DNA from: a phage
DNA length: 64,000 nt
Sequence record: PZ445450.1
Direction: 5' to 3' (one strand)
Under the pieces are notes generated by a model, which was not told the DNA's origin, ran no database searches, and saw only the letters and a program-made list of their open reading frames with translations. Shown here in pieces: positions 14,343-58,046 of the stretch (position 1 is the first letter of the stretch; each line of letters opens with the position of its first letter). The position numbers were made by a program, and so were the translations under genes.

Positions 14343-14345
14343 TTC

Positions 14346-30421: not shown

Positions 30422-30759
30422 GTTTGTGGAGAAATATCGTTAACTACGTGTGCGGCAATCCAACTCCTGAAGAGAAGGATGTTGTGATTCACGATTTTAC
30501 TAAAAGATCTCGTGAAAAAGATCTACTGCTAACAAAGGTGACTGATAAAGATCCTGCAGTAGGGGACTGGGCAGGTTTTGCGTTTACATCGGACAAATAC
30601 ACCTTTAACAAAGGTGACTACCTTGTTGTGGATTTTAACGAAGACATTGAGGGTGCTGAACCTTACTATCAAACCCTTATTGTTGCAGGGTGTGTTGATC
30701 TCTCTGCAGGCATGCACAGTTTGATTCTTTTTGAGCTTGACTCTGAAGACCTTGAGTAG
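30418..30759 (+). CDS. Hypothetical protein
   Basis: 113-aa ORF overlapping helicase stop. Confidence 0.4.
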   Translation: MSLWRNIVNYVCGNPTPEEKDVVIHDFTKRSREKDLLLTKVTDKDPAVGDWAGFAFTSDKYTFNKGDYLVVDFNEDIEGAEPYYQTLIVAGCVDLSAGMHSLILFELDSEDLE

Positions 30760-30819
30760 TAAGATGTGAGTATAAAGGGGAGGCACTCCTCCCCACAAAA
30801 ACTAAGGAAGCACTAAACG

Positions 30820-31122
30820 ATGAAACGTTATAAACCATACACTTTTGAAATCGATTTCGAACTTGACGATATGTTTACTGTGGAAGCTCAGGCAGTTGTC
30901 CAGTTGCCAGACTCGGAGTGCCGTGACTCTGATGTTGACTATTACGGGTTTAGACAAATTACCGATGTGCGTGTTTACCACAACGGTGAAGAGGTGGACT
31001 TCCACCAACTGCCAAACGATATGCGCCACTCAATTTACAAACGTGCAGCCCGTGAACTAGAGTCCTATCTGGATGCAGCGACGACAGCAGCTGCATTTGC
31101 TGAAGAAGTGGGAGGTTTCTGA
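30820..31122 (+). CDS. Hypothetical protein
   Basis: 100-aa ORF after a GC stem-loop near 30775-30792. Confidence 0.4.
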   Translation: MKRYKPYTFEIDFELDDMFTVEAQAVVQLPDSECRDSDVDYYGFRQITDVRVYHNGEEVDFHQLPNDMRHSIYKRAARELESYLDAATTAAAFAEEVGGF

Positions 31123-32012: not shown

Positions 32013-32018
32013 CACTAG

Positions 32019-46675: not shown

Positions 46676-46849
46676 ATGAAAGGTAATGCTACTCACCTGG
46701 AGAATGTAGCGATTAATGACGCTGAGGCTATCGCCCTGGTTGAAAAGGCTATGGCGGGAGCGTTGGAACATAAAGAAGAGTACGAAAAAATGGTGGTTAA
46801 CCTAGCGGGGGCGGCAGGTGGATTCTATCATAAAAATAATTTAAAATAG
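46676..46849 (+). CDS. Small early protein (57 aa, not in ORF track)
   Basis: ATG after GAGGAGG; hand-translated to TAG 46847-46849. Confidence 0.4.
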   Translation: MKGNATHLENVAINDAEAIALVEKAMAGALEHKEEYEKMVVNLAGAAGGFYHKNNLK

Positions 46850-46852
46850 TCG

Positions 46853-46880
46853 TTGACAACAAGGTTAATCATGGTATTAT
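46853..46880 (+). promoter_or_regulatory. Sigma70-like early promoter
   Basis: TTGACA-N16-TATTAT; the track ORF start at 46853 lies on this promoter. Confidence 0.6.
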
Positions 46881-46930
46881 TACCCTACAAGGTGAACAAC
46901 ACCGCACTAACCAGTAAAGAGGATAAATTT

Positions 46931-47128
46931 ATGAACGCATACGGGATCAAAGTACGTTGCAACACTCGCCAGGTGGTCACCAATCAAGTGATTTGCCGGG
47001 TGGATGTAACCATCAACAACGGGCAAGGCCTTTATAAATTTCGTCGCGGTCATAGCTATACCCTGCAACAGCTTAATCGTTGCGCCCTGACAAAAGGTCA
47101 GATCAACCACTGGTTTAATAAAAAATAA
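46931..47128 (+). CDS. Small early protein
   Basis: ATG 46931 after AAAGAGGA. Confidence 0.45.
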   Translation: MNAYGIKVRCNTRQVVTNQVICRVDVTINNGQGLYKFRRGHSYTLQQLNRCALTKGQINHWFNKK

Positions 47129-47131
47129 ATA

Positions 47132-47160
47132 TTGACATGTAGTCTGAAACAAAATATACT
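47132..47160 (+). promoter_or_regulatory. Sigma70-like early promoter
   Basis: TTGACA-N17-TATACT. Confidence 0.6.
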
Positions 47161-47192
47161 GAAAGCACAAAAGACACTAAGAGGATAAAATC

Positions 47193-47591
47193 ATGAAAAC
47201 CACAACCTTTAATTTTGACAATGCTGACTTCTCTTTTTCTGATGTTAAAAGCTGCCGCCGTGATCGCGGATTCTACAAGGCCTATAATCTGGTTGGCCTG
47301 GACGATGATAATAATTTGCACGAAGTAGCGGAGATCCGGTACTATGCCGCCGCCAGCGGTAACACTCACTACTGTGTATTTTGGATTCACGACAACAAGA
47401 ACAATAAGTACGGTTATACTGGCGGCAAGGCGAGCGGTCACGGTTATGATAAAGCCAACGCTGCACTTGAAAGCGCATTAAGTGCCATGGGAATCACTGC
47501 CGACGGCTGGATCTATGAAGAAGAGTTTTTGGCGGCACTTGCTAACCACCTGGGCTATAAAAAGCACATTGTAACATGTGCCCACGAATAA
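47193..47591 (+). CDS. Early protein, unknown function
   Basis: 132-aa ORF with AAGAGGA RBS. Confidence 0.5.
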   Translation: MKTTTFNFDNADFSFSDVKSCRRDRGFYKAYNLVGLDDDNNLHEVAEIRYYAAASGNTHYCVFWIHDNKNNKYGYTGGKASGHGYDKANAALESALSAMGITADGWIYEEEFLAALANHLGYKKHIVTCAHE

Positions 47592-47599
47592 AAAAATTA

Positions 47600-47627
47600 T
47601 TGACACGCTGCAAAATTCAAGTAAACT
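47600..47627 (+). promoter_or_regulatory. Sigma70-like early promoter
   Basis: TTGACA-N16-TAAACT, then 5' hairpin GGCGGGAATGTTTCCCGCC. Confidence 0.5.
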
Positions 47628-47675
47628 ATACACAAAAGGCGGGAATGTTTCCCGCCAACACAAAGGAAAAAGATC

Positions 47676-48071
47676 ATGAATAAGAACGTACGCCGCATCA
47701 TGAACGAACTGGCAAACGATGAAAAAATTATTGACATGCATTTAGTCAACATTTGCCGCCGTTGTGTAACATATAACAACCGCGCCGCAAAAGCGCGTGA
47801 GATGAACGCAAAAGGCACCTTAAAGCCTTTTCAGGTGGTTGTAAAATCTATAACTAATGCAGCAGGCCAGGCGCATGACCACAACAACGAGAGCACTAAT
47901 ATTGATCCGTCTTACGTAATGAAACGGATCCGGACTTGCAAGAATAAAGAGCAGGTGTATAACGTCATAGATTGGCTGGACTCCCTGGGCGATGTGGTTT
48001 ACAATAGGTTTTCTGCAGCCATCGAGATCCAGCTTGACAGATTGGACGGGAAAGTACTAAAAACTTATTGA
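47676..48071 (+). CDS. Early protein, unknown function
   Basis: 131-aa ORF; leader ..CCAACACAAAGGAAAAAGATC ATG. Confidence 0.5.
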   Translation: MNKNVRRIMNELANDEKIIDMHLVNICRRCVTYNNRAAKAREMNAKGTLKPFQVVVKSITNAAGQAHDHNNESTNIDPSYVMKRIRTCKNKEQVYNVIDWLDSLGDVVYNRFSAAIEIQLDRLDGKVLKTY

Positions 48072-48082
48072 GTTTATTTTTA

Positions 48083-48119
48083 GATGGCCTTGACTCCAGG
48101 GCCATCAATAAAGTAAACT
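48083..48119 (+). repeat. Conserved hairpin-promoter repeat, copy 1
   Basis: GATGGCC-TTGACTCCAG-GGCCATC hairpin holding TTGACT, then AATAAAGTAAACT; near-identical at 48704 and 52448. Confidence 0.6.
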
Positions 48120-48151
48120 AACCACAATTAAGCGGAAAAGGAGGCTTAAAG

Positions 48152-48271
48152 ATGAGCACTACACGCCAGCACACAAAGGTAACTATTATCGTTTGCATCA
48201 TTGGTTACATCCTGGCGCAAATGTTGATGGGTAGCGCCAACGGTGTAGCAAAATTTTTCTTAAACTTTTAA
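48152..48271 (+). CDS. Small hydrophobic peptide (39 aa)
   Basis: RBS AAAAGGAGG; VTIIVCIIGYILAQMLMG. Confidence 0.35.
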   Translation: MSTTRQHTKVTIIVCIIGYILAQMLMGSANGVAKFFLNF

Positions 48272-48299
48272 TTGACAAGCTAACTTAGATCAGTATACT
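48272..48299 (+). promoter_or_regulatory. Sigma70-like early promoter
   Basis: TTGACA-N16-TATACT. Confidence 0.6.
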
Positions 48300-48350
48300 A
48301 AGCACATAGACGGGAAAACTTCCCCAGACACACGAAAGGAGAAAAACACC

Positions 48351-48692
48351 ATGACTACTATGACCGCCGAAGAAAAAGCCCTGCAGATCGCCGCTCTGAA
48401 AAAACAGATCGCAGACCTTGAGAATAAGATCGATAACTTTGAAATCGACGAGGACAAGTACGACGAAAACTATGATGAATGGCTAGACGAGGTTTATGGC
48501 GAAATTATGATCGGAAACATTTCTTTTCTTCCGTCGCGTATCCTCAAGGAGTTAGATCCTATCGCTTACCGCTGCGGATTTAGCGACTACATCGACAGCC
48601 TGGATATTGAGGACGATGAAGAATACCGGGAATTACAGACAGAGTTGGAAGAAGCAAAAGAAGAGCTTGCGGAGCTGGAAGAAAACGAGTAA
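48351..48692 (+). CDS. Highly acidic early protein (113 aa)
   Basis: About one third Asp/Glu with coiled-coil segments; strong promoter and AAAGGAGA RBS. Confidence 0.5.
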   Translation: MTTMTAEEKALQIAALKKQIADLENKIDNFEIDEDKYDENYDEWLDEVYGEIMIGNISFLPSRILKELDPIAYRCGFSDYIDSLDIEDDEEYRELQTELEEAKEELAELEENE

Positions 48693-48703
48693 GATTATTT
48701 TTA

Positions 48704-48740
48704 GATGGCCTTGACTCCAGGGCCATCAATAAAGTAAACT
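48704..48740 (+). repeat. Conserved hairpin-promoter repeat, copy 2
   Basis: Same GATGGCCTTGACTCCAGGGCCATC..AAAGTAAACT element. Confidence 0.6.
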
Positions 48741-48781
48741 TTATACTGTTAACACTGAACTAATGCATAGGAGTTAAAACC

Positions 48782-49027
48782 ATGGCAGCACTAATCACTA
48801 AATATTACGCCCCTACCAACACCAAAAGCGCCCGTATCATGGTAAAAGGCTTCGGACGTAAAAAGGTTTACACCTGGGATTATGCCTTAGACACGGAAGA
48901 CAACTACACCAACGCGATGACAGATTTTATTAATGAGCTGAACACGCGGATCTTGACAAATTATAAAATTACCGATATTGCCTATATAGGGGAAGGCGGG
49001 ATCTGTTTTGTCGGTATCGTCAAATAA
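48782..49027 (+). CDS. Early protein, unknown function
   Basis: 81-aa ORF after repeat copy 2. Confidence 0.45.
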   Translation: MAALITKYYAPTNTKSARIMVKGFGRKKVYTWDYALDTEDNYTNAMTDFINELNTRILTNYKITDIAYIGEGGICFVGIVK

Positions 49028-49103
49028 ACTGTTTTTTCGGTGGTCCTGGTAGCAGGGCCATCTATAAAGATAGTTTATCAATACAATGAAAGGAGAAAGT
49101 AAC

Positions 49104-49451
49104 ATGATCAGTGGGGCAAGTTTTATTATTGGCGCTATTGCTACGGCTTTAATTGTAAACAAGATCCAATCTAAAAACGAAAAAGAGAGCAACGCGCTCA
49201 CAGAATACCCATTTTGGATATTCAACGACAATGAAGACTACATTATCAAGTACAAGAATGAGAAGGGCGACCAGGTAACACCGCGACCGATCCCGGCCTA
49301 CAAGATGCAAGAAACACTATACCGCCTAAAGGCTGGAGGCGCAAAAATCGTAGACTTTTGGGGATATGATTGCAAGGATCAGGAGGTTATAAAACGGCGT
49401 ATCCGGGCTATTCAGGCCAATATTGAAGTTAGCAAGGGGGGGAATATATGA
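49104..49451 (+). CDS. Early protein with N-terminal hydrophobic helix
   Basis: ATG 49104 after AAGGAGAAAG; N-terminus ISGASFIIGAIATALIV. Confidence 0.45.
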   Translation: MISGASFIIGAIATALIVNKIQSKNEKESNALTEYPFWIFNDNEDYIIKYKNEKGDQVTPRPIPAYKMQETLYRLKAGGAKIVDFWGYDCKDQEVIKRRIRAIQANIEVSKGGNI

Positions 49452-49645
49452 AGATTAATTTTGAGAAGATTGTAAAGCGATCTCATGTTTCCGAAGAGCT
49501 GCCGGAACGACGCCAGCGTAACAATAAACTGAATAAGCCAAAAAGATTTGGAAAGATCTGGCGAAATCATTATGATCGTAAATTGCCTGGCCTACTTTTG
49601 GAACGTGAACGACAGGCAGAACGATACCGCCATAAAGACAAATAA
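49448..49645 (+). CDS. Small basic protein
   Basis: 65-aa Lys/Arg-rich ORF overlapping upstream stop. Confidence 0.4.
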   Translation: MKINFEKIVKRSHVSEELPERRQRNNKLNKPKRFGKIWRNHYDRKLPGLLLERERQAERYRHKDK

Positions 49646-49653
49646 CAACCAAC

Positions 49654-49683
49654 GCCCCGCCATTGTGCGGGGCTTTTTATTTC
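49654..49683 (+). terminator. Rho-independent terminator
   Basis: Stem GCCCCGC/GCGGGGC, loop CATTGT, then TTTTTATTTC. Confidence 0.7.
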
Positions 49684-49826
49684 TATCCTACGAATAGCGC
49701 CCCTGGTTGGCCCTGTAAGCGCCAAAAAGGCCCCACCTATGCAATCGCCCCCCTTTAACCTGAAAACATCGCTTAGGGCCGTTTTATGGCGTTAAAAATA
49801 TCATTGACAGTGATTTTATTTAAAGC

Positions 49827-49854
49827 TTGACATCTTAAACAGGTTAGCTATACT
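49827..49854 (+). promoter_or_regulatory. Sigma70-like early promoter
   Basis: TTGACA-N16-TATACT; second TTGACA at 49804. Confidence 0.6.
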
Positions 49855-49886
49855 AACCACATCAAAGAGAGAAAGGAGTAAACGCC

Positions 49887-50147
49887 ATGCGTAAATTAAA
49901 AAATTTTGATAAAGTTGATGTTGTCCTGAATAATTTTTACTACTGCAACAACAAGGCCATTTGGTGGCGTGATAGTTCCACCGATAAAGTCAAGGCGCGC
50001 TTTCTCCAGGGGCACTGGCAAGGCCGCCCAGTGATTAAAATCATGGGGCAATTGGTAGCGTTTAAAAATTGCCGCCGTGTTGATGACGTTGAGGAGATTT
50101 TAAACATTTTGCGCCACAATAATTTAAAAAATAGTGTTGACAAGTAA
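49887..50147 (+). CDS. Early protein, unknown function
   Basis: 86-aa ORF; 3' end overlaps next promoter. Confidence 0.45.
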   Translation: MRKLKNFDKVDVVLNNFYYCNNKAIWWRDSSTDKVKARFLQGHWQGRPVIKIMGQLVAFKNCRRVDDVEEILNILRHNNLKNSVDK

Positions 50148-50164
50148 ATCTCAATAAGTATAAT
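50137..50164 (+). promoter_or_regulatory. Sigma70-like early promoter
   Basis: TTGACA-N16-TATAAT, then 5' hairpin GGCGGGAAAACTTACCGCC. Confidence 0.65.
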
Positions 50165-50221
50165 TAAACACACAGGCGGGAAAACTTACCGCCACTAACA
50201 AAGAAAACAGGAGAAAATATC

Positions 50222-50845
50222 ATGACCACCGTTAACATTACCACAGGTTACAATTTATCTTTCGACGTGCTGACCGACGAACAAAAAGAAAAAGCCATTG
50301 AAATGGTACGCGAAAGAGAAGAACACAGCGGGGATGACTTTTTTGCAGAAAGTGTAATTGAACACTACAAAGAATATATCTTTCCAGAGTACGGCCTTGA
50401 AGATACCGAAGTACATTGGTCCGGCTTTTGGTGCCAGGGTGACGGCGCGTCAATCAGTGCTGAAAACGTGGATTTAGAAAAATTTTTGCGTAAAGTAAAG
50501 GCCCTGACCAAGTTCCGATCAATTCGTCACTTGTTCGGCACAATGCACGATGGCGAGTTATCAGCCAGTGTTGAACGCGACAAGTACAGCCATTACAGCC
50601 ATGAAAACACTGTAAGCGGATACATTGATACCACCTGGCTAGATCTGACCGCCAAACAAGAAAACAAAGTGGAAGACCTGGAAGAGCTGATCACCGAGAC
50701 GGTACGGGAGCTATCCCGCAAGGTTTACGTAGACCTGGAGGAGGCCTATCTAGAACAGTTCACTACCGAAAACCTGATCGGCCTTATTGAGGCCAATGAT
50801 TGGCGGTTTGATGTGGATGAATATGGAGAGATGAGTTTTTCATAA
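50222..50845 (+). CDS. Acidic early protein (207 aa), unknown function
   Basis: ORF with CAGGAGA RBS; Glu/Asp-rich. Confidence 0.5.
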   Translation: MTTVNITTGYNLSFDVLTDEQKEKAIEMVREREEHSGDDFFAESVIEHYKEYIFPEYGLEDTEVHWSGFWCQGDGASISAENVDLEKFLRKVKALTKFRSIRHLFGTMHDGELSASVERDKYSHYSHENTVSGYIDTTWLDLTAKQENKVEDLEELITETVRELSRKVYVDLEEAYLEQFTTENLIGLIEANDWRFDVDEYGEMSFS

Positions 50846-50853
50846 ATAAAGTG

Positions 50854-50881
50854 TTGCAATAATCTAAAAACCTGCTATATT
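50854..50881 (+). promoter_or_regulatory. Sigma70-like early promoter
   Basis: TTGCAA-N16-TATATT, then hairpin GGGGCAAGACGTTTGCCCC. Confidence 0.5.
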
Positions 50882-50934
50882 AAAACTCAAGGGGGCAAGA
50901 CGTTTGCCCCACACAAAACAAAGAGGAAAACATT

Positions 50935-51315
50935 ATGAAAAACACTACTAAAGCTATTGACACCGTTATGTTTAACCTGGTTACCTTTCGCGAGGATATG
51001 AAAGATCTTCCACGTGAAACAGTGTGCGATCACATTGAAAACTATCGCAAACTAATCAAAGAGTTGCCTTTAAAACGTGACCAGTATGCGGCTAACGCTA
51101 TGCTCAACGCCATGATCAAAAAGATGATTCAGTGTGATTTAACCCTGGCCTATGATTATGCAGGTGGTCGTTTTGCAGTATACAATCAGCCCGTGCCTGG
51201 TATGGGCACCACTGAAGAATTGCACGCGCTCAATCTAAAACAAGACGTGTGGGATAGTATGCCCCGCGTGGTGGTGTGGGCAGAAAGCGGAAAGATTTAC
51301 GGCGATAATTTTTAA
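50935..51315 (+). CDS. Early protein, unknown function
   Basis: 126-aa ORF with AAGAGGAAAA RBS. Confidence 0.5.
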   Translation: MKNTTKAIDTVMFNLVTFREDMKDLPRETVCDHIENYRKLIKELPLKRDQYAANAMLNAMIKKMIQCDLTLAYDYAGGRFAVYNQPVPGMGTTEELHALNLKQDVWDSMPRVVVWAESGKIYGDNF

Positions 51316-51324
51316 TCAGGTAAC

Positions 51325-51351
51325 AGGCGGCATATTTGCCGCCTTATTGTT
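51325..51351 (+). terminator. Rho-independent terminator
   Basis: Stem AGGCGGCA/TGCCGCCT, loop TATT, then TATTGTT. Confidence 0.6.
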
Positions 51352-51379
51352 AAACAGAACTGCAAAAGAGGTACATAGA

Positions 51380-51751
51380 ATGGAATTTATTATTTTGGCC
51401 GTATTAGTTGCCTTGTTTAACGCCTGGATCGCTGGCAAGATGGGTAGATCCGCCTTTTTATGGTTTATTATATCTATTTTCCTGGGGGTGGTTGCAACTA
51501 TTGTACTTGTTATCCTTGCAATTGTTGACAAAGGCGATAATAGAAAGGGTAAAGTATTTTCCGACCTGTATGACGCGCAAACATTTGTCAACGCCTATTA
51601 TAGTGATCTTCCAGTCTCCCTACGCTGCAGCCTTGCACAACAGGTTTTCGATGAAGCTAAAACCAGAGATCACGCCCATGAGATTTGTTTAACTGAGGCG
51701 GATCGCCTATTTGAGAGGAATAGAAAATATGTGGGCCAGCCGTTTAAATAA
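51380..51751 (+). CDS. Membrane protein
   Basis: ATG 51380 after AAAGAGG; two hydrophobic helices FIILAVLVALFNAWIAG and LWFIISIFLGVVATIVLVILAIV. Confidence 0.45.
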   Translation: MEFIILAVLVALFNAWIAGKMGRSAFLWFIISIFLGVVATIVLVILAIVDKGDNRKGKVFSDLYDAQTFVNAYYSDLPVSLRCSLAQQVFDEAKTRDHAHEICLTEADRLFERNRKYVGQPFK

Positions 51752-51974
51752 TACCACGTTAATTAATCCCTTTGATGAAGATTTGAAGCCAGCCGCCTGG
51801 CGTGATGGATTCAATAACGAACGCTTTATTTTCAGGCCTGATCTTAAGGAATTTTATAACAATGGATCGAACAACGACAGAGATAATTTTTCTTGTGATG
51901 TGCGTGGTGATGGTACTCCTGGGGGCCATTGTAAACCACGTCACTACTACCAGGATGAAAGGGGGAGACGATGA
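51729..51974 (+). CDS. Hypothetical protein
   Basis: ATG 51729 after GAGGAA; overlaps neighbours. Confidence 0.35.
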   Translation: MWASRLNNTTLINPFDEDLKPAAWRDGFNNERFIFRPDLKEFYNNGSNNDRDNFSCDVRGDGTPGGHCKPRHYYQDERGRR

Positions 51975-52090
51975 CAACCAAGGATAAGCCCCGCACCGAT
52001 AAGGTGCGCCGGGTTATGGTATGGCTTGAGATCATCGCCCTTGAAATATTGTTAGGCGTAGGGATGTATTTTATCGCTGTAAGTAACTGA
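51971..52090 (+). CDS. Small membrane peptide (39 aa, not in ORF track)
   Basis: ATGA overlap with upstream stop; WLEIIALEILLGVGMYFIAV. Confidence 0.3.
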   Translation: MTTKDKPRTDKVRRVMVWLEIIALEILLGVGMYFIAVSN

Positions 52091-52094
52091 TAAC

Positions 52095-52125
52095 GGCCCC
52101 CGATCCCTGGGGGCCTAACTTTTTC
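52095..52125 (+). terminator. Rho-independent terminator
   Basis: Stem GGCCCCC/GGGGGCC, loop GATCCCT, then TAACTTTTTC. Confidence 0.65.
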
Positions 52126-52147
52126 AAAAAATTTTTCTTCCGGGGTG

Positions 52148-52175
52148 TTGCAATCCGGTCCGAAATATGGATAAT
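52148..52175 (+). promoter_or_regulatory. Sigma70-like promoter, TTGCA-type
   Basis: TTGCAA-N16-GATAAT preceded by TG; same ATATGGATAAT box as promoter at 53314. Confidence 0.5.
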
Positions 52176-52234
52176 AATAATAATCAACGGGGAGCTAATC
52201 CCCACCAACACAAAAACCAGAAAGGAGAAACAAA

Positions 52235-52435
52235 ATGAGCAACAATATCCGCGTTATTAACTTCAAAAAAGAAGAAAAAATTGCCGTGCTGATTGACGGT
52301 CAAGAAATCTTCAAGGGCGACTATGAAGATCATCAAACGGCGATTAGTATCACTCGCGTGATTGGTTACCATAATTTTTACCCCCAAGGCGCTGAGGCAG
52401 CTGTTAAACGAATCAAAGAGATTGTAGGCCTGTAA
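52235..52435 (+). CDS. Small early protein
   Basis: 66-aa ORF; leader hairpin GGGGAGCTAATCCCC + CCAACACAAAAACC + AAAGGAGA. Confidence 0.5.
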   Translation: MSNNIRVINFKKEEKIAVLIDGQEIFKGDYEDHQTAISITRVIGYHNFYPQGAEAAVKRIKEIVGL

Positions 52436-52447
52436 AATTTATTTTTA

Positions 52448-52484
52448 GATGGCCTTGACTCCAGGGCCATCAATAAAGTAAATT
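52448..52484 (+). repeat. Conserved hairpin-promoter repeat, copy 3
   Basis: GATGGCCTTGACTCCAGGGCCATC..AAAGTAAATT. Confidence 0.6.
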
Positions 52485-52528
52485 TAAACCCTGTTAAAAT
52501 ACCACGCAGTTAACAAGGAGTGATAGAC

Positions 52529-52828
52529 ATGTTTATCCAGGCTAATAATCTTTATTTCTTTGATGGTCAGATCGTAGACGGCGTGGAAGTAGAGATCACC
52601 GGGTGCCCTGGCGGTCAGGTTATGACTTTTCGGAATAATGCCTTTGATGATTCTCATATCGTTATGAGAATGGAAGTTAGTAAGCTGGACGATAAGAAAA
52701 CACTCATTGATTATTCCGTGAAAGATCATCCAGACTACCACATGATCTATGGCGATTTGTGCATTGTTGACCGTGACAAGGTGAACGGCATTGTGATCGC
52801 TATTGTGAACGATGTTTTCTCAAACTAG
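52529..52828 (+). CDS. Early protein, unknown function
   Basis: ATG 52529 after AAGGAG. Confidence 0.45.
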   Translation: MFIQANNLYFFDGQIVDGVEVEITGCPGGQVMTFRNNAFDDSHIVMRMEVSKLDDKKTLIDYSVKDHPDYHMIYGDLCIVDRDKVNGIVIAIVNDVFSN

Positions 52829-52845
52829 TTTCAGCAGGTTATTTT

Positions 52846-53196
52846 ATGAAAGTAAAACTATATTACCTTAATGAGCTTAACCCCCTTGCCCAGGTCCGCG
52901 CCCTGGCTAATACCTTGATTTGTGAGAAATCTGTATATTGTGTTGAGATTAACGCCATGCGTGAACGTCTCAAAGGTGGTTACTTTGACATCCATGCTGC
53001 AATCAACGGCCTGAATATGGAATTTATCCGCTTACGTAACAGCCGCCAGAGTCTGGCAAGAATGGAACAAGATCCGGCCCACCTTCGTAAGCTGGTTATT
53101 GAAAACCATCTGATGTTCAATGCCGATGGCGATTATTACCATTTTCACCGTAAACGCTGGTACCGTAGCGGCAATATAGGAAATAATGCAAAATAA
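52846..53196 (+). CDS. Early protein, unknown function
   Basis: 116-aa ORF. Confidence 0.45.
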   Translation: MKVKLYYLNELNPLAQVRALANTLICEKSVYCVEINAMRERLKGGYFDIHAAINGLNMEFIRLRNSRQSLARMEQDPAHLRKLVIENHLMFNADGDYYHFHRKRWYRSGNIGNNAK

Positions 53197-53232
53197 GGCC
53201 CCCGGCAGGGCCTACAGCGATATAATCATCTA

Positions 53233-53266
53233 AAGGCTATGCAACCGCATGGCCTTTATTATTTTG
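53233..53266 (+). terminator. Rho-independent terminator
   Basis: 10-bp stem AAGGCTATGC/GCATGGCCTT, loop AACC, then TATTATTTT. Confidence 0.6.
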
Positions 53267-53313
53267 GCGTTACAGCGGCCCCAAGGCGCTTAAAAATTTT
53301 TTTAAAGAAGTGC

Positions 53314-53341
53314 TTGCATCAAGTCCTACAATATGGATAAT
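53314..53341 (+). promoter_or_regulatory. Sigma70-like promoter, TTGCA-type
   Basis: TTGCAT-N16-GATAAT with upstream TG; 5' hairpin GGGGGCGGCCCCC follows. Confidence 0.5.
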
Positions 53342-53397
53342 AGGACGTGTCAGGGGGCGGCCCCCAATCATTAACCGGATAGATAGGAGTTAAAACT

Positions 53398-53682
53398 ATG
53401 GCTATTGTTACCGTTGGCGATGTAGTAGAAATGGAAGCCAAATACTTAAAAGCGGGTATGCATATCCTACGCAACGATCTTGAGCTAGTCCTGACAATGG
53501 TCGACTATAATCCCGGCCAGGATTATCCAAGCATCGACTACTTTTTTGAGTATGTTGATGAAGAGCTAAAAGAAGACGAAGCCTATTGCGGTGAATTTTG
53601 CAACTTCTTTTGCCCTGATGAGGTTGTAAAAGTTATCTATCAACCTGGCGTACCTTTCCCGTTGCACGCCATCAATAAATAA
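53398..53682 (+). CDS. Early protein, unknown function
   Basis: 94-aa ORF with TAGGAG RBS. Confidence 0.5.
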   Translation: MAIVTVGDVVEMEAKYLKAGMHILRNDLELVLTMVDYNPGQDYPSIDYFFEYVDEELKEDEAYCGEFCNFFCPDEVVKVIYQPGVPFPLHAINK

Positions 53683-53744
53683 GCCTAGCGGGGCCGAAAA
53701 GGCCCCTCCTGAAATTATGAAAAAATAAAGAGGGGTAAATCATC

Positions 53745-53981
53745 ATGATTGAACAAATTAAAAGCACTAAACCGAACGTTAACGGCAATGTTTCTCACTT
53801 TATTGGTGATAATGAAAGAGGGACACCGTACGCTGCGGTAACAGTTCAACCGAACGGGGATTATTGGTTTACTGTATACGGATCTTATTCTTTTGGGCGT
53901 CCGGTGCATGATAGAATTTTAAAAGTAGCTAATCCGACCGGGAAGAATATCACAGCAGAAAAATTTTTTGAAAATAGTTGA
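53745..53981 (+). CDS. Early protein, unknown function
   Basis: 78-aa ORF with AGAGGGG RBS. Confidence 0.45.
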   Translation: MIEQIKSTKPNVNGNVSHFIGDNERGTPYAAVTVQPNGDYWFTVYGSYSFGRPVHDRILKVANPTGKNITAEKFFENS

Positions 53982-54008
53982 CATGACCGTATAAGACTGT
54001 AGTATATA
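53978..54008 (+). promoter_or_regulatory. Sigma70-like promoter
   Basis: TTGACA then TATATA at about 19 nt; 5' hairpin GGGGGCAAGCCCC follows. Confidence 0.4.
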
Positions 54009-54053
54009 AATCAAAGGGGGCAAGCCCCACCAACCACAAAGAGGATAAAAATC

Positions 54054-54233
54054 ATGGCTATTATTGCAAAGACCGAGATTGTAGGGTTAGATTCTATTCT
54101 CCTGGCATATGAGGAAGCTATAGAAATGTATGTGGTTTCCTACGGTGAGTATATCCGTGAATATAAATCTGTTGATCTAGCTTTTGAATGTTATATTCGC
54201 CAGGTCAATAAAGCATATGATGATTATCGTTAA
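54054..54233 (+). CDS. Small early protein (59 aa, not in ORF track)
   Basis: ATG after AAGAGGA; hand-translated to TAA 54231-54233. Confidence 0.35.
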   Translation: MAIIAKTEIVGLDSILLAYEEAIEMYVVSYGEYIREYKSVDLAFECYIRQVNKAYDDYR

Positions 54234-54239
54234 AATAGT

Positions 54240-54267
54240 TTGACAACAATTATAAATCGGGTAGAAT
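54240..54267 (+). promoter_or_regulatory. Sigma70-like promoter
   Basis: TTGACA-N16-TAGAAT, then hairpin GCGGCA-ATGA-TGCCGC. Confidence 0.55.
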
Positions 54268-54318
54268 GTATTTCGTAGGGCGGCAATGATGCCGCTCACA
54301 ACTAGAAGAGGGGTCATC

Positions 54319-54513
54319 ATGGCGCTTAAAAAACTAACAAGCAATACTCGTTGGGATGAAATCGACGGGGAAGTTTACATTTTCGCCCGTAAACCAGGGG
54401 ATCAAAAATGGTCAAAGGCTTTTACTTGCCACCCTGCAACAATAGACCTGATAAAAAGGGAAGGTCTACGTGAAGCAGTATCAAGAAGCCTACTGATCCC
54501 TTGTAAAAAATAG
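54319..54513 (+). CDS. Small early protein
   Basis: ATG 54319 after AGAAGAGGGG; track start 54286 lies inside the leader hairpin. Confidence 0.45.
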   Translation: MALKKLTSNTRWDEIDGEVYIFARKPGDQKWSKAFTCHPATIDLIKREGLREAVSRSLLIPCKK

Positions 54514-54594
54514 TTGGACAATACGCGGTTACCTGGTAAAGTGTACGACATAGGGCGGGGCAATAAGGCAACGCCCATTAATGAGGGTGGAATC

Positions 54595-54699
54595 ATGTTA
54601 GAGAAAATTTTCACGGTTGTAGTAGTGGGCCTGGCGTTATCGGTTGGAGTAGTTGCAACTATGGCTAACATGATCCTATCTTCCCACGGTATTGGATAA
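54595..54699 (+). CDS. Small membrane peptide (34 aa)
   Basis: ATG 54595 after GAGGGTGG; FTVVVVGLALSVGVVATMANMIL; the track's 54514 start is probably an artefactual extension. Confidence 0.3.
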   Translation: MLEKIFTVVVVGLALSVGVVATMANMILSSHGIG

Positions 54700-54925
54700 G
54701 GTGAATCAAATGATCACGAATAAAACAGGTAAAACAGAATTTTTACGCGGCTTGCAGATCGGCAAGCCTGAGATCTGGTATTGCACTAAAACACCACGTG
54801 ACGAAATGAAAGACTTCACCGCCACGCTACAACGGGTAAAGATATCCATCACACAGAAAAAGGCCTTGATAGTGGTGGAAGGTGAGATCCCCCAAGCCGT
54901 TGTTATAGTTGAGCGTACAGCATAG
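54692..54925 (+). CDS. Hypothetical protein
   Basis: Track ORF; alternative in-frame ATG at 54710. Confidence 0.4.
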   Translation: MDKVNQMITNKTGKTEFLRGLQIGKPEIWYCTKTPRDEMKDFTATLQRVKISITQKKALIVVEGEIPQAVVIVERTA

Positions 54926-55014
54926 TTTAATCTATACCGTACACCCCATTAACTAACAAAGCATAAACAGGCGGCGGTGACCGCCTTAAACGCAACAGAA
55001 AGAGGATAGACACA

Positions 55015-55299
55015 ATGAAAAAGATGATCGCAGTGGTTGCCCTGGTTGTTGGACTTAATGCGCCTGCAATGGCTAAAGAGCTGGCAAAAGAGGTAGATCT
55101 AACTGATATCCATGCCGTCAATCAAATCGGGGTTACTTATCGCTTATGCCTTGCCGCTAAAACTTTTAAGGACGGCACTACAGAGTACTACGGATTCGAG
55201 GGCGTCCGGTGCGGTGAACTTGCTCGCGACCTTAAAGAAGATCCAGACCTGGAGGATCTGCCGATAACCGTAAACGGGAAAACTTACGTGAACCGTTAA
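55015..55299 (+). CDS. Secreted small protein
   Basis: Signal-peptide-like MKKMIAVVALVVGLNAPAMA; RBS AAAGAGGA. Confidence 0.5.
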   Translation: MKKMIAVVALVVGLNAPAMAKELAKEVDLTDIHAVNQIGVTYRLCLAAKTFKDGTTEYYGFEGVRCGELARDLKEDPDLEDLPITVNGKTYVNR

Positions 55300-55444
55300 C
55301 CATGAGAAAGATAATTATTACCATAGGGATCGTGGCGGCAATGTTGGCGATCTTTCCCCTTATGGTTAGGTATGTGCTGATCAGTGTTGTCCTGGTAGTC
55401 AGCGATCTAATGTTATATATTAACTCATTGTTTTAGGTGGAATA

Positions 55445-55636
55445 ATGACAGCAGAAGAAGTTAAAAAAGTACTGGCAGTACTACGTTACCATAATCATTG
55501 CAAGGTGAAGAATGATCCTGATTATCTCGATTCATCCCTTGAAGAGGATACACTGCAAGCCATAAGCAACATGCAAGAATTGCTTAAGCGTATGACAGAG
55601 AAAAACCGACCGGACTATATAGGCGAAAAAATATAA
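55445..55636 (+). CDS. Small early protein
   Basis: 63-aa ORF. Confidence 0.45.
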   Translation: MTAEEVKKVLAVLRYHNHCKVKNDPDYLDSSLEEDTLQAISNMQELLKRMTEKNRPDYIGEKI

Positions 55637-55650
55637 TCTTTATAAACCAT

Positions 55651-55684
55651 AAAACAGGGCTTGTAATGGTCCTGTTTTTTGTTA
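55651..55684 (+). terminator. Rho-independent terminator
   Basis: Stem AAAACAGG/CCTGTTTT with wobble-extended inner pairs, T-run TTTTTTGTT. Confidence 0.65.
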
Positions 55685-55693
55685 TACTTATTT

Positions 55694-55745
55694 CACGGCA
55701 GGCACCTGGCGACGGGGGGAGACAATCACCGGGGGTGCCTGTCAT
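55694..55745 (-). repeat. GC-rich element, copy 3 (inverted)
   Basis: GGCAGGCACC..GACGGGGGGAGACAATCACCGGGGGTGCCTGTC is the near reverse complement of copy 2. Confidence 0.55.
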
Positions 55746-55765
55746 ATAAAAAACTATAAAAACCG

Positions 55766-55794
55766 TTGACACCTGCCAGGCGGTGGGGTAACAT
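55766..55794 (+). promoter_or_regulatory. Sigma70-like promoter
   Basis: TTGACA-N17-TAACAT. Confidence 0.45.
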
Positions 55795-55848
55795 TTATCT
55801 TGAAGGGGCAAAAGTGCTCACACAACAACCAGAAGAGAGGAAAACGCC

Positions 55849-56121
55849 ATGTTAAGCTGGATTAACCAAGAAGTCGAATCACGTTTTAATACTATTTAGG
55901 ATCTCATCGAAAAAGAGGACGGAACATCAAGCCCTTATCTCAATAATCTTGAATTCCATTTCGTGGAAGCGATGAACGCAGAACATGATCACGAAGGTGG
56001 TGCGGACGAGTTCGCTAAAGGGTATGGCTTCAACAATGCCAACGAAATGATCGAGGCGGTTGTACTCCAGGCTGAGGAAGATTATCAATTAAAAACGCTT
56101 GAATTCTGCCGCCGTAAGTAA
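55849..56121 (+). other. Early ORF interrupted by an in-frame TAG at 55897-55899 (codon 17 of 90)
   Basis: ATG 55849 after AGAAGAGAGGAAAA; frame open on both sides of a single amber codon to TAA 56119-56121; alternative downstream start ATG 55975. Confidence 0.4.
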
Positions 56122-56183
56122 TAAGATAATGACACGGGCCAAAAGGCCCACTAATCAGAACCGCACAAAAAGAGAGAAAGAAA

Positions 56184-56402
56184 ATGGCAACCCGTAAAAT
56201 TAAAGTTGTTTGCATTGAATCAACTGGTAGCGCTTTTGTAGTTGGTCAGAAATATAATGCGGTTTTAATGGGTACGGATTGGAAGGTTAAAGGCCTTGAT
56301 GGTTACGAATACGGCACTACTCGGGGATTGCGTGGTCGAATCGGATACGTGAGTTTTGACAACAAAGAAAAATTTGTTTTCGATATTGTTGTGAGTAAAT
56401 AG
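56184..56402 (+). CDS. Small early protein
   Basis: 72-aa ORF with AAAGAGAGAAAG RBS. Confidence 0.45.
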   Translation: MATRKIKVVCIESTGSAFVVGQKYNAVLMGTDWKVKGLDGYEYGTTRGLRGRIGYVSFDNKEKFVFDIVVSK

Positions 56403-56458
56403 CAATTCATGCTATATTATCAACTAATCAAAACGAACCGCATAAAGAGGAAAACATC

Positions 56459-56722
56459 ATGAAACGTCTTGACCAGCTCAAACTAGTTCAGTACATGGCT
56501 TACAGAATTCTTGAAGTCCAAAAAGGTAGCAAAAAAGAAGTTTGCGAGAAAGCGTACAAGATCTTTACTCGCAAAAAAGACGATTGGATGTTACGCCAGA
56601 CCAAAAAAGCCGATATCTTGGGGTACCTGGAAGAAGAGATCCGGCTTGAAGAACAAGAAGAGATCCGCCGTAGTGAGGCAGATTATCAGGCAGCTTGGGA
56701 AAACTGGATGAGCAACAAATAA
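56459..56722 (+). CDS. Small early protein
   Basis: 87-aa charged ORF with AAAGAGGAAAA RBS. Confidence 0.45.
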   Translation: MKRLDQLKLVQYMAYRILEVQKGSKKEVCEKAYKIFTRKKDDWMLRQTKKADILGYLEEEIRLEEQEEIRRSEADYQAAWENWMSNK

Positions 56723-56788
56723 TACAACAGGTTGCATGGTCAGGGGCGATAAAGCCCCTTGATCACATAAAAATTATGCTATCCCTTG

Positions 56789-56817
56789 TTGACAGGGATC
56801 GGCAGTTTTGCTATATT
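56789..56817 (+). promoter_or_regulatory. Sigma70-like promoter
   Basis: TTGACA-N17-TATATT. Confidence 0.6.
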
Positions 56818-56866
56818 CTTTTTTGAAGGGAAGTTGTAAGAAAATTAACTAAGAGGTAAAAACACC

Positions 56867-57286
56867 ATGAACATTAAATCTGATAATCCGGCATATAGCT
56901 TTGATAACGCTTTTTGTCACGGTCCGGCGGCGAAAGGATTCGAAATCGATGGTAAACTAATTATTGTCAATGTTGACGGGGAAGAGGTTGCAGTATATCC
57001 GGTGGCAGACGTTAAAAGCCGTCTACAATGCCGCATAGATGTTACCGCCTATCAGCTTGATCCGGTCCGGGTAGTTGCCCTGGTCCTGGAAGAAGAAATT
57101 AAAGCAATGCACCACAGCAACAAGTTTATTGGTGACGCTCAAGATAATATGCAGGTATGCCGCTATAAAGTTAATGAAGTGCTTAAAGAGTACGGCTATA
57201 AGGATTTAATGATCAAGCGCGATGAAAAATTCCGCTACCGTAACAACCTGGCAAATCGGATTTTTGAAATATACGAATCATTATAA
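56867..57286 (+). CDS. Early protein, unknown function
   Basis: 139-aa ORF with TAAGAGGTAAAA RBS; last gene of rightward early cluster. Confidence 0.5.
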   Translation: MNIKSDNPAYSFDNAFCHGPAAKGFEIDGKLIIVNVDGEEVAVYPVADVKSRLQCRIDVTAYQLDPVRVVALVLEEEIKAMHHSNKFIGDAQDNMQVCRYKVNEVLKEYGYKDLMIKRDEKFRYRNNLANRIFEIYESL

Positions 57287-57304
57287 TTTCTTAACTGAAT
57301 TATC

Positions 57305-57334
57305 AAGGGGCTTAAAGGCCCCTTTCTTTTTGTC
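57305..57334 (+). terminator. Rho-independent terminator closing the early cluster
   Basis: Stem AAGGGGC/GCCCCTT then TCTTTTTGTC. Confidence 0.75.
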
Positions 57335-58046
57335 TGCTCTTCTCCTACCATAAACGGCCCTACCTGGCAAGTGGAATAATTGACTAGCCATCAATCCCAC
57401 ATACTGTACAAATATACATGGAAAATAACTATTGCATAATCTTTCATTGTGCGGTAGCAGGGCCATTTTTACCCGTTTTCTCTCCCAAAAGTGCACGTAA
57501 TGCCGCTATTGCACAAATTTTAACCTGATGCACATATCCAATATCTTGTCAACAACTAAAAATCTTTATAAGTCATACACTTATACAGCATCGAAAGCGT
57601 GTTCTACGTGAAAAATCGAGTATAACTATAGCCGCCAGATCTCAGAATTCACGTACGCACGCCATTCTATAGCCTGCAAAGTATTTATTCCAACCACAGA
57701 ATAACGGAATAGTCAATACCTGCATAAAATAATTATTCGTGTAAACTGCATAACATAAATCAGCTCAGGTGTCAACATTTTTCGTAAACAGTCCGAAATT
57801 ATCACGATGAGTTATCATAAACAGAGAAATCTTTAGTCGTCTAATGTTTACTGTACATTACTATACTGACTGGAATCATTAGATGACTAAGAAAAAGATA
57901 AGAAATAATTAATAATGTAATTGTTTTATCTGTAACAATAAGGCAACCATGCAAACGAATGTCATGGCGCGACGGAGTCGCGACATAATATAAAAGCAGT
58001 AACCATCACCCCCGTGATAGTTTGTCTGCAATCTATTATTCAGATC

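What the first reader, a model, noticed from the sequence alone, without database searches (positions are those of the whole stretch)
46853..56870. Stereotyped early expression cassettes: promoter, 5' GC hairpin, CA-rich leader, RBS
At least ten small genes are preceded by near-consensus TTGACA/TATAAT-type promoters, then a short GC hairpin (e.g. GGCGGGAATGTTTCCCGCC, GGGGCAAGACGTTTGCCCC, GGGGAGCTAATCCCC) and a CCAACACAAA-like tract before the RBS. A modular leader of this kind implies coordinated high-level early expression and possibly a shared RNA-level control.
Basis: partly seen in the sequence, partly recalled or inferred. Interest (0 to 1): 0.5.

Follow-up and report, generated by a model that had tools for sequence, protein, structure and literature searches.

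The report
Phage promoter–hairpin–leader gene cassettes
In this rV5-like E. coli phage, many small genes of unknown function each carry the same portable expression unit (strong host-type promoter, GC hairpin at the predicted mRNA 5' end, A/C-rich leader, ribosome site); this resembles the "PeSL" cassettes known from T4-like phages, so it is a real but not unprecedented feature.

Summary
The window is an rV5-like Vequintavirus. Of 14 gene-proximal sigma70-type promoters in 46853-56870, 8 are followed 10-13 nt after the -10 by a stable GC hairpin (background 3.8%, p~1e-8), and 2 more by a weak one. An A58/C27% linker rich in ACA, an SD and an ATG follow. The same architecture fills the small-gene blocks of Phapecoctavirus and Justusliebigvirus phages (up to 13 of 16 promoters).

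The hairpin is selected as a structure. There are 34 sequences in 42 cassettes, the arms covary, 93 of 94 orthologous instances keep a hairpin, and G·U pairs favour the sense strand. No U-tract follows, so these are not canonical terminators, although one public record annotates them as such.

Indels between relatives join hairpin to hairpin or leader to leader.

Best reading: a PeSL-type mobile early-expression cassette. In T4-like RB49 the stem-loop lies inside the promoter. Here it sits at about +4 of the transcript, where it would most plausibly shield the 5' end from RppH/RNase E, while the ACA-rich leader promotes translation. The hairpin and leader functions are inferred, not shown. No shared trans-acting regulator was found.

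The parts
47600..47678 (+). Class I cassette: TTGACA-16-TAAACT, 10 nt, hairpin 47638-47656 (GGCGGGAATGTTTCCCGCC, -13.1 kcal/mol), aacacaaa linker, SD, ATG 47676
   Evidence: z = -4.1
48272..48353 (+). Class I cassette with weak hairpin 48312-48324 (GGGAAAACTTCCC, -4.0), which is invariant in the 9 relatives recovered; ATG 48351
50137..50224 (+). Class I cassette: consensus TTGACA-16-TATAAT, hairpin 50175-50193 (has an A mismatch here; 8 of the 9 readable relatives have C, giving -13.1), ATG 50222
50854..50937 (+). Class I cassette: TTGCAA-16-TATATT, hairpin 50892-50910 (GGGGCAAGACGTTTGCCCC, -11.1), acacaaaacaaa linker, ATG 50935
   Evidence: four hairpin alleles among relatives, including a paired G/C insertion
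52148..52237 (+). Class I cassette: TTGCAA-16-GATAAT, 13 nt, hairpin 52189-52203 (GGGGAGCTAATCCCC, -7.8), accaacacaaaaacc linker, ATG 52235
53314..53400 (+). Class I cassette: TTGCAT-16-GATAAT, 11 nt, hairpin 53353-53365 (GGGGGCGGCCCCC), ATG 53398; at least 6 hairpin alleles in relatives
53978..54056 (+). Class I cassette: TTGACA-16-TAGTAT, hairpin 54016-54028 (GGGGGCAAGCCCC, -6.4), accaaccacaaa linker, ATG 54054
54240..54321 (+). Class I cassette: TTGACA-16-TAGAAT, hairpin 54278-54297 (GGGCGGCAATGATGCCGCTC, -12.9; same family as the Phapecoctavirus consensus), ATG 54319. Also a recombination joint.
54515..54597 (+). Class I cassette: TGGACA-16-TAAAGT, hairpin 54553-54576 (-13.4), ATG 54595. 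Also a recombination joint; the hairpin is replaced by an unrelated one in two relatives.
55766..55851 (+). Class I cassette: TTGACA-17-TAACAT, hairpin 55806-55819 (G·U here, G-C in relatives), acacaacaacc linker, ATG 55849
30737..30822 (+). Class I cassette outside the reported range: TTGACT-17-TAAGAT, 11 nt, hairpin 30777-30794 (-12.6), acaaaaact linker, ATG 30820
46853..46933 (+). Promoter plus A/C-rich leader without a stable hairpin (as also at 47132-47195, 49827-49889 and 56789-56869)
48071..48119 (+). Class II element: 49-nt palindromic repeat that carries TTGACT-18-TAAACT within a long hairpin (-24 kcal/mol, z = -7). Further copies at 48692-48740 and 52436-52484, and a degenerate copy at 49027-49075.
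   Evidence: a 562-nt deletion in relative L011 joins two copies
56136..56186 (+). Hairpin plus A/C leader plus SD with at most a weak promoter (orphan unit). Similar units at 53690-53747 and 54969-55017. The gene downstream of this one is absent in 7 of 10 relatives through a leader-to-leader deletion.
49654..49682 (+). Canonical intrinsic terminator (GC stem plus T-run). Others at 52095-52124, 55651-55687 and 57305-57333. Together they divide the block into four units and contrast with the class I hairpins.

Best explanation
These are PeSL-type modular early-expression cassettes of an rV5-like phage. Each small gene of unknown function carries its own unit:
- an AT-rich upstream tract and a near-consensus sigma70 promoter, used by unmodified host RNA polymerase;
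- a G-run/loop/C-run hairpin beginning about 10 nt after the -10, which is about +4 of the predicted transcript;
- an unstructured, ACA-rich A/C linker, an SD and an ATG.

Inferred mechanism:
1. The promoter gives strong transcription that needs no phage factor.
2. [quoted passage not shown] This would hinder RppH and 5'-end-dependent RNase E attack and so stabilise the message.
3. The G/U-poor, ACA-rich linker keeps the ribosome site open and enhances initiation.
4. Because the unit is repeated, recombination between copies deletes, inserts and swaps genes. That makes the block hyperplastic.

The architecture, the selection on structure and the recombination joints are shown. Timing, transcript 5' ends, mRNA stabilisation and translational enhancement are inferred.
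For: Identity and context. The window matches 284 phage records, and the best matches are Vequintavirus. All ten cargo proteins tested fall in PHROGs of unknown function.

Position. 8 of 14 promoters have a stable hairpin 10-13 nt after the -10, against a 3.8% background (p ~ 1e-8). The modal offset is 10 nt.

Spread.
- tuntematon has about 20 cassettes, VEcB has 11, and a 153-kb IMG/VR contig has 13 of 16 promoters with the hairpin.
- RB49 has 4 of 55 and PVP-SE1 has 3 of 25.

Selection on structure.
- 34 distinct hairpin sequences occur in 42 cassettes. Native dG is -11.5, against -7.8 for chimeric arms.
- In the CM-based alignment, 94.6% of cells are paired, 3 of 8 pairs show changes on both sides (20 cells), and 0 of 500 shuffles reach the observed covariation score.
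- Orthologues keep a hairpin in 93 of 94 instances despite allele turnover, paired G/C insertions and whole-hairpin swaps.

Sense-strand bias. There are 13 G·U pairs on the + strand against 3 on the - strand, and 23 hairpins are more stable on + against 6 on -.

Not terminators. The 9 nt after class I hairpins contain 0-3 T. The four canonical terminators of the same block have 5-8 T.

Leader.
- Composition is A58/C27/G7/T7, and ribosome-site openness is 0.64 against 0.52 in control genes (p = 0.009).
- ACA is enriched about six-fold. ACA motifs are documented translation enhancers (PMC3879156).

5' structure. Secondary structure at the 5' end stabilises E. coli mRNA because RppH and RNase E need single-stranded 5' termini (PMC3997798).

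Recombination. Joints fall hairpin-to-hairpin (54283|54551 with 7 nt overlap; 54287|54551), leader-to-leader (56169-56183|56429-56437 with 11-19 nt overlap, in 7 relatives) and repeat-to-repeat (48119|48681 with 60 nt overlap).

Precedent. PeSLs are described in PMC2839356 and PMC4122927.
Against: - No transcript 5' or 3' ends are available. The +4 position rests on the usual 7-nt distance from -10 to start. An overhang of 4-7 nt is at or beyond the limit for protection, as I recall it from Emory et al. 1992.
- Four promoters in the block lack the hairpin, so it is not obligatory.
- Three to four hairpin-plus-leader units lack a promoter, and the class II element places its hairpin around the -35, upstream of its own start. 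In those cases the hairpin can only act on read-through RNA or at the DNA level. That fits the terminator/attenuator role shown for one RB49/phi1-type PeSL stem-loop.
- Much of the positional constancy could reflect common descent or gene conversion of cassettes rather than function. The spacer GTATCACATAG is itself conserved in Phapecoctavirus.
- The gain in ribosome-site openness is modest.
- The covariation alignment was fitted to the model.
Confidence: 0.55

Rival explanations
1. Insulator or attenuator, as proposed for PeSLs. The hairpin acts on read-through RNA from the upstream gene. It would terminate or attenuate transcription, or form a 3'-protective end, so that each small gene is driven mainly by its own promoter.
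For: One RB49/phi1-type PeSL stem-loop reduced lacZ expression as much as rrnB T1 (PMC2839356). The EdH4 record annotates two of these hairpins as terminators. Orphan hairpins without a promoter, and class II hairpins that lie upstream of their own start, can only act this way.
Against: No U-tract follows: class I hairpins have 0-3 T in the next 9 nt, against 5-8 T for the four canonical terminators the phage uses in the same block. The fixed 10-13 nt offset from the -10 is not needed for a terminator, and RB49 places its stem-loops elsewhere.
Confidence: 0.2
2. Recombination substrate only. The hairpin and leader persist because the cassette spreads as a unit by homologous recombination or mini-circles. 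The stem-loop would have no role in RNA.
For: Breakpoints fall in hairpins, leaders and repeats with 7-60 nt overlaps. A hairpin at 55849 in L011 is identical to that of the 50935 cassette, and whole hairpins are swapped at 54595. Spacer sequence is highly conserved in Phapecoctavirus.
Against: Homologous recombination needs sequence identity, not pairing. Yet the sequences diverge while pairing is kept: 34 sequences in 42 cassettes, compensatory flips such as CG 22 versus GC 11 with no unpaired cells, and paired G/C insertions. G·U pairs are biased to the sense strand.
Confidence: 0.1
3. Common binding site for a phage or host protein that switches the whole gene set off or on together. The site could be an RNA hairpin, or a DNA inverted repeat acting as an operator at +4 to +22.
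For: The position immediately downstream of the start suits a repressor or a translational regulator. The base of the stem (TAGGGCGG...CCGC) is conserved in sequence across many cassettes of three genera.
Against: In the window the arms, stem lengths (4-9 bp) and loops (3-9 nt) differ widely between cassettes. That is hard to reconcile with one sequence-specific protein. No candidate regulator was identified.
Confidence: 0.1
4. The C/A-rich leaders are targets of a GU-rich small RNA (host GcvB or a phage RNA) that silences the set.
For: GcvB acts on C/A-rich, ACA-containing sites upstream of the SD (PMC3879156). The linkers are ACA-rich.
Against: Duplex energy against GcvB R1 is -14.3 for the leaders and -13.7 for random windows. 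The longest contiguous pairing is 7.9 nt against 8.2 nt. No intergenic GU-rich RNA candidate was seen in the window.
Confidence: 0.02

Closest known systems
PeSL (promoter-early stem-loop) cassettes of T4-like phages RB49/phi1, PST/T4 and nt-1/KVP40 (Arbiol et al. 2010, PMC2839356; Comeau et al. 2014, PMC4122927)
   Same: AT-rich upstream tract, near-consensus sigma70 promoter, G-run/loop/C-run stem-loop, then SD and start codon of a small ORFan. The cassettes are clustered in a hyperplastic block and sit at indel and replacement joints between close relatives. RB49 leaders are also A/C-rich: RB49 has cccaacacaaaacaaaaggag and the window has ccccacacaaaacaaagagg. The class II element, with its stem around the -35, matches a described PeSL subclass.
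   Different: A different phage lineage (Vequintavirinae and Stephanstirmvirinae, not Straboviridae). In RB49 the stem-loop usually lies between -35 and -10 or over the -10, and only 4 of 55 RB49 promoters have one 8-14 nt after the -10. Here it is almost always 10-13 nt after the -10, so it is transcribed from its own promoter. Terminator activity and mini-circles were shown for PeSLs and are untested here.
5'-terminal stem-loop mRNA stabilisers (ompA and papA 5' UTRs; from memory, also the stem-loop at the 5' end of the T7 gene 10 leader)
   Same: A simple GC hairpin within a few nucleotides of the mRNA 5' end, where structure matters rather than sequence. It is followed by an open leader and a good SD. 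The rationale, that RppH and RNase E need single-stranded 5' ends, is given in PMC3997798.
   Different: Those are single, experimentally mapped cases. Here 5' ends and half-lives are unknown, and the predicted overhang (about 3-7 nt) may be too long for some cassettes.
ACA / C/A-rich translation enhancers upstream of the SD (Yang, Figueroa-Bossi and Bossi 2014, PMC3879156)
   Same: ACA-rich, G/U-poor tract immediately upstream of the SD. ACA is about six-fold enriched.
   Different: The enhancer effect is not tested here. The known examples are GcvB targets, whereas these leaders show no excess GcvB complementarity.
Rho-independent terminators (how the EdH4 record annotates two of these hairpins)
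   Same: GC-rich stem-loop in an intergenic region.
   Different: No U-tract follows, and the hairpins lie downstream of a promoter at a fixed offset. Canonical terminators with T-runs exist separately in the same block.

Membership tests
PeSL cassette | Near-consensus sigma70-type promoter with an AT-rich upstream tract | tested here: met
   14 promoters scoring 8-12 of 12. The 25 nt upstream of the -35 are 74% AT, against 56% for the window.
PeSL cassette | Stable stem-loop, typically a G-run/loop/C-run, within the cassette | tested here: met
   8 stable and 2 weak class I hairpins, plus class II palindromes.
PeSL cassette | SD and start codon of a small ORF(an) at the 3' end, clustered in a variable (hyperplastic) block | tested here: met
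   All 10 cargo proteins tested fall in PHROGs of unknown function. Gene content differs among the 10 relatives.
PeSL cassette | Indel and replacement junctions between close relatives fall in or next to cassettes | tested here: met
   Hairpin-to-hairpin, leader-to-leader and repeat-to-repeat joints with 7-60 nt overlaps. Cassettes cover 16% of the block. Caveat: only viable rearrangements are seen.
PeSL cassette | Stem-loop terminates or attenuates upstream transcription | not testable with these tools
   By sequence there is no U-tract. This needs Term-seq or a reporter assay.
PeSL cassette | Formation of encapsidated mini-circles by recombination between neighbouring cassettes | not testable with these tools
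   This needs outward-facing PCR on phage DNA.
5'-terminal stem-loop mRNA stabiliser | Hairpin no more than about 2-4 unpaired nt from the true 5' end (criterion recalled from Emory et al. 1992) | tested here: inconclusive
   With a start 7 nt after the -10, the overhang is 4 nt in 6 of 11 cassettes, 5 nt in 3, and 6-7 nt in 2. The start sites are not mapped.
5'-terminal stem-loop mRNA stabiliser | Structure, not sequence, is what is conserved | tested here: met
5'-terminal stem-loop mRNA stabiliser | The hairpin lengthens mRNA half-life in an RppH/RNase E-dependent way | not testable with these tools
   This needs rifampicin chase experiments.
Intrinsic (Rho-independent) terminator | GC stem-loop immediately followed by a U-run | tested here: not met
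   0-3 T in the 9 nt after class I hairpins, against 5-8 T for canonical terminators in the same block. The scan flags these hairpins only on the opposite strand.
Any Rfam RNA family | Covariance-model match | tested here: not met
   Nothing near the gathering score in 45000-59000.
GcvB-targeted C/A-rich site | Above-background complementarity to GcvB R1 | tested here: not met

The most novel reading that the evidence does not exclude
The +4 hairpin could be a self-marking device. The phage encodes a protein with an Srd-like domain (20114-21088, minus strand). If this protein, like T4 Srd, stimulates RNase E against host mRNA, then a 5'-terminal hairpin on every early phage message would exempt phage transcripts from the decay the phage itself provokes. 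That would amount to a structural self/non-self code for mRNA, carried on a mobile cassette so that any newly acquired gene is protected at once.
Probability: 0.15. Interest if true: 0.65.

Novelty: new member of a known kind. Interest (0 to 1): 0.35.

Why it matters
The promoters of rV5 were listed in 2013, but the hairpin and leader that follow them were not described. In at least one public record they are annotated as terminators.

Recognising them as PeSL-type cassettes extends this mechanism of gene shuffling from T4-like phages to two other subfamilies of large coliphages. These phages are widely used in therapy and typing collections. It also explains why the small-gene block differs between otherwise 92-95% identical isolates.

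The fixed +4 position gives a clean natural test of whether 5' hairpins protect phage messages. The compact promoter-hairpin-leader unit (about 80 nt) is directly usable as an expression part.

Tried and rejected
- **Rfam scan of 45000-59000.** No family matched.
- **GcvB control of the C/A leaders.** Neither duplex energies nor longest contiguous pairing exceed random windows. No phage GU-rich RNA candidate was found.
- **Intrinsic terminator reading.** Rejected for class I hairpins because no U-tract follows.
- **Antisense-strand terminator reading.** The scan flags some hairpins on the minus strand. There are no minus-strand genes there, and G·U pairs favour the plus strand.
- **Single DNA operator.** Disfavoured because the arms differ between cassettes.
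- **MAFFT alignment of all 41 cassettes (A1).** It did not keep the 3' arms in register, so it was not used for pair counts. A covariance model built from a 10-sequence seed was used instead.
- **IMG/VR pattern scan.** Only 9 stretches matched, mostly the same phage groups.
- **PVP-SE1 (Seunavirus), first 50 kb.** No such cassette block was found there. The rest of that genome was not examined.
- **Literature searches.** I searched for transcriptomes, or a prior description of these hairpins, in rV5-like and phAPEC8-like phages and found none. The library does not hold most subscription-journal papers.

Full report
**What the window is.** The stretch 46853-56870 matches 284 phage records at 80-96% identity. 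The best matches are Vequintavirus, the rV5-like E. coli myoviruses of about 137 kb. The region is a block of about 30 small plus-strand genes. In a record with annotated ends it lies next to the terminal repeat and is transcribed towards it. All ten of its proteins that I tested fall in PHROG families of unknown function. The rV5 genome paper listed 33 sigma70-type promoters but says nothing about hairpins or leaders downstream of them (PMC3606486). One public record predicts promoters at these sites. Another annotates two of the hairpins as terminators.

**Checking the observation.** For each gene start I took the best promoter and the best hairpin in the leader.
- Fourteen genes have a sigma70-like promoter scoring 8-12 of 12.
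- Eight of these have a hairpin of -6.4 to -13.4 kcal/mol that begins 10-13 nt after the -10, most often exactly 10 nt.
- Two have weaker hairpins, one of which is a stronger G-C version in most of the ten relatives compared and at least as stable in all of them.
- Four have none.
- A hairpin of that strength begins at that offset from a random position in 3.8% of cases, so 8 of 14 gives p of about 1e-8.
- Strong promoters elsewhere in the window lack the hairpin, except for one more cassette at 30737-30822.

The tract between hairpin and SD is 58% A, 27% C, 7% G and 7% T. ACA occurs at 0.116 per nt, against 0.020 in the window. The 25 nt upstream of the -35 are 74% AT.

A 49-nt palindromic repeat, present three times plus one degenerate copy, contains a TTGACT-18-TAAACT promoter inside a -24 kcal/mol hairpin. 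Three to four hairpin-plus-leader units have no convincing promoter.

**Relatives.** The architecture is far more stereotyped in Phapecoctavirus tuntematon. About 20 of about 35 intergenic regions, each 78-97 nt long, read TTGACA-16-TAAGAT/TAAACT, GTATCACATA, GGGCGGCAATGGTGCCGCTC-like hairpin, ACAACAGAAGAGAG, ATG. Justusliebigvirus VEcB has 11 such cassettes. A 153-kb IMG/VR contig has 13 among 16 strong promoters. The first 50 kb of Seunavirus PVP-SE1 shows no such block.

**Selection on structure.**
- Forty-two cassettes from three genera carry 34 different hairpin sequences. Joining the 5' arm of one to the 3' arm of another lowers stability from -11.5 to -7.8 kcal/mol on average.
- A covariance model built from ten copies found 57 matches in the window and 16 other loci. 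All were on the gene strand apart from the terminator-like hairpin near 51325-51344 with its orthologues and one truncated weak match.
- On that alignment 94.6% of cells pair and three of eight pairs change on both sides. One pair is CG in 22 rows and GC in 11 rows, with none unpaired. No shuffle of 500 reaches the observed covariation score, and slid registers collapse. This alignment is fitted to the model and leans towards it.
- Among ten Vequintavirus relatives, 93 of 94 orthologous instances keep a hairpin while the sequence turns over. There are four alleles at 50892, including a paired G...C insertion, and at least six at 53353. A wholly different hairpin sits upstream of the same gene at 54553. 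One hairpin at 55806 has been replaced by a copy of the 50892 hairpin.
- G·U pairs occur 13 times in the sense strand against 3 in the antisense strand. Twenty-three hairpins are more stable in the sense strand, against 6 in the antisense strand. Copies are related, so this is suggestive rather than a strict test.

**What the hairpins are not.**
- They are not followed by a U-run: 0-3 T in the next 9 nt. The four canonical terminators that divide the same block have 5-8 T.
- No Rfam family matches.
- The leaders are no more complementary to the host C/A-targeting sRNA GcvB than random windows are.

**Recombination.** I aligned the block with ten relatives.
- One deletion joins the hairpin at 54278-54297 to the hairpin at 54553-54576, with 7 nt overlap.
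- A replacement is bounded by the same two hairpins.
- A deletion, seen in seven relatives, removes gene 56184 between two homologous leaders, with 11-19 nt overlap.
- A 562-nt deletion joins two copies of the 49-nt repeat, with 60 nt overlap.
- A 361-nt insertion lies between a promoter and its hairpin.
- Another deletion joins two terminator hairpins.

Cassettes cover 16% of the block. Only viable rearrangements are seen, so enrichment in intergenic DNA is expected. The overlaps inside homologous cassette parts are the telling point.

**Comparison with what is known.** Arbiol et al. 2010 and Comeau et al. 2014 described PeSLs in T4-like phages. These are strong sigma70 promoters with an AT-rich upstream tract, a G-run/loop/C-run stem-loop and an SD. 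They lie upstream of ORFans in hyperplastic regions, sit at indel joints and form mini-circles. One stem-loop was shown to reduce downstream lacZ expression like a strong terminator.

I read the RB49 cassettes directly. Their stem-loops lie between -35 and -10 or across the -10, and their leaders are also A/C-rich, one being almost identical to a window leader. With the same scanner, only 4 of 55 strong RB49 promoters have a hairpin 8-14 nt after the -10.

The present cassettes therefore meet every sequence-level criterion for PeSLs. They differ in phage lineage and in placing the stem-loop almost always in the transcribed leader. That position is listed as one of five PeSL subclasses, and the class II palindrome matches the subclass that overlaps the -35.

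**Mechanism.** If transcription starts 7 nt after the -10, the hairpin leaves 4-5 unpaired nucleotides in 9 of 11 cassettes. RppH and the 5' sensor of RNase E need single-stranded 5' ends, which is the accepted reason why 5' secondary structure stabilises E. coli mRNAs (PMC3997798). ACA motifs upstream of the SD are documented translation enhancers (PMC3879156). The ribosome site is predicted to be more open than in control genes, 0.64 against 0.52, p = 0.009.

I therefore favour a unit in which the hairpin shields the 5' end and the leader promotes initiation, with cassette repetition driving gene shuffling. The orphan hairpins and the class II element cannot act at a primary 5' end. They keep the PeSL attenuator or 3'-end role alive as a second, non-exclusive function.

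A speculative link: the window encodes a protein with an Srd-like domain (PHROG 1400 at E = 1.4e-9 and PHROG 4592 at 3e-12, although its best match is an HNH family). T4 Srd stimulates RNase E against host mRNA (Qi et al. 2015, as cited in PMC4980113). That would give a reason to shield phage 5' ends.

**Verdict.** The feature is real, statistically strong and conserved. It is best filed as a new member of the known PeSL kind, with a distinctive and consistent hairpin position. The functional claims (early timing, 5' protection, translational enhancement) remain inferences until transcript ends and half-lives are measured.

Noticed in passing
window 55897-55899: The gene driven by the cassette at 55766 has an in-frame TAG at codon 17, where the two relatives whose translation I compared have TGG (Trp). 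The rest of the 90-codon frame is intact. This is an amber mutation or a recent pseudogene.
   Followed up: partly
window 55697-55743 (+), 46458-46503 (-), core also at 46336-46352 (-): A GC-rich structured element of about 50 nt (ACGGCAGGCACC...GGGGGAGACAAYCACCGGGG...) occurs two to three times in non-coding DNA flanking the gene block. Two copies lie just downstream of promoter-like sites. The + copy folds at -24.6 kcal/mol (z = -3.6) and is conserved in all ten relatives. It could be a small RNA or a DNA site.
   Followed up: partly
window 45999-46194: Three tandem-like copies (spacing 65 and 74 nt) of a 57-nt T-rich repeat lie in a stretch without convincing genes, just upstream of the small-gene block.
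   Followed up: no
window 46554-46571 and 52121-52138: An exact 18-nt repeat, TTTTCAAAAAATTTTTCT, occurs twice. The second copy directly follows the terminator at 52095-52115 and precedes the promoter at 52148.
   Followed up: no
window 20114-21088 (-): A protein at the head of the divergent transcription unit matches an HNH-endonuclease PHROG (3e-110). Its N-terminal part also matches 'Srd anti-sigma factor' and 'decoy of host sigma70' PHROGs (1e-9 to 3e-12). It has no Pfam hit.
   Followed up: partly
window 31968-32045: A strong promoter (TTGACA-17-TACAAT) is followed within about 30 nt by a terminator-like hairpin with a T-run (GGCCCTGCCCGAAAGGGTGGGGCTTTTT), before the next gene. This may be an attenuator arrangement, unlike the cassettes.
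   Followed up: no
search result: Twenty-two records labelled 'Campylobacter phage' (for example C5, C9, A147) match this E. coli Vequintavirus block at 92-96% identity. Mislabelled hosts or contamination seem likely.
   Followed up: no
L015 (RB49), upstream of the gene ending at locus position 3899: An RB49 PeSL leader (taagatactcccaacacaaaacaaaaggagaatactATG) is nearly identical to the window leader at 50906-50937 (ccccacacaaaacaaagaggaaaacattATG). This suggests either exchange of cassette parts between phage families or convergence.
   Followed up: no
L003 (tuntematon) 3700-15000: In Phapecoctavirus the -10 is usually TAAGAT, TAAACT or TAAAGT with a 16-nt spacer, and the SD is an unusual AGAAGAGAG purine run rather than GGAGG. 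The spacer GTATCAC(A/G)TAG before the hairpin is conserved in sequence.
   Followed up: partly
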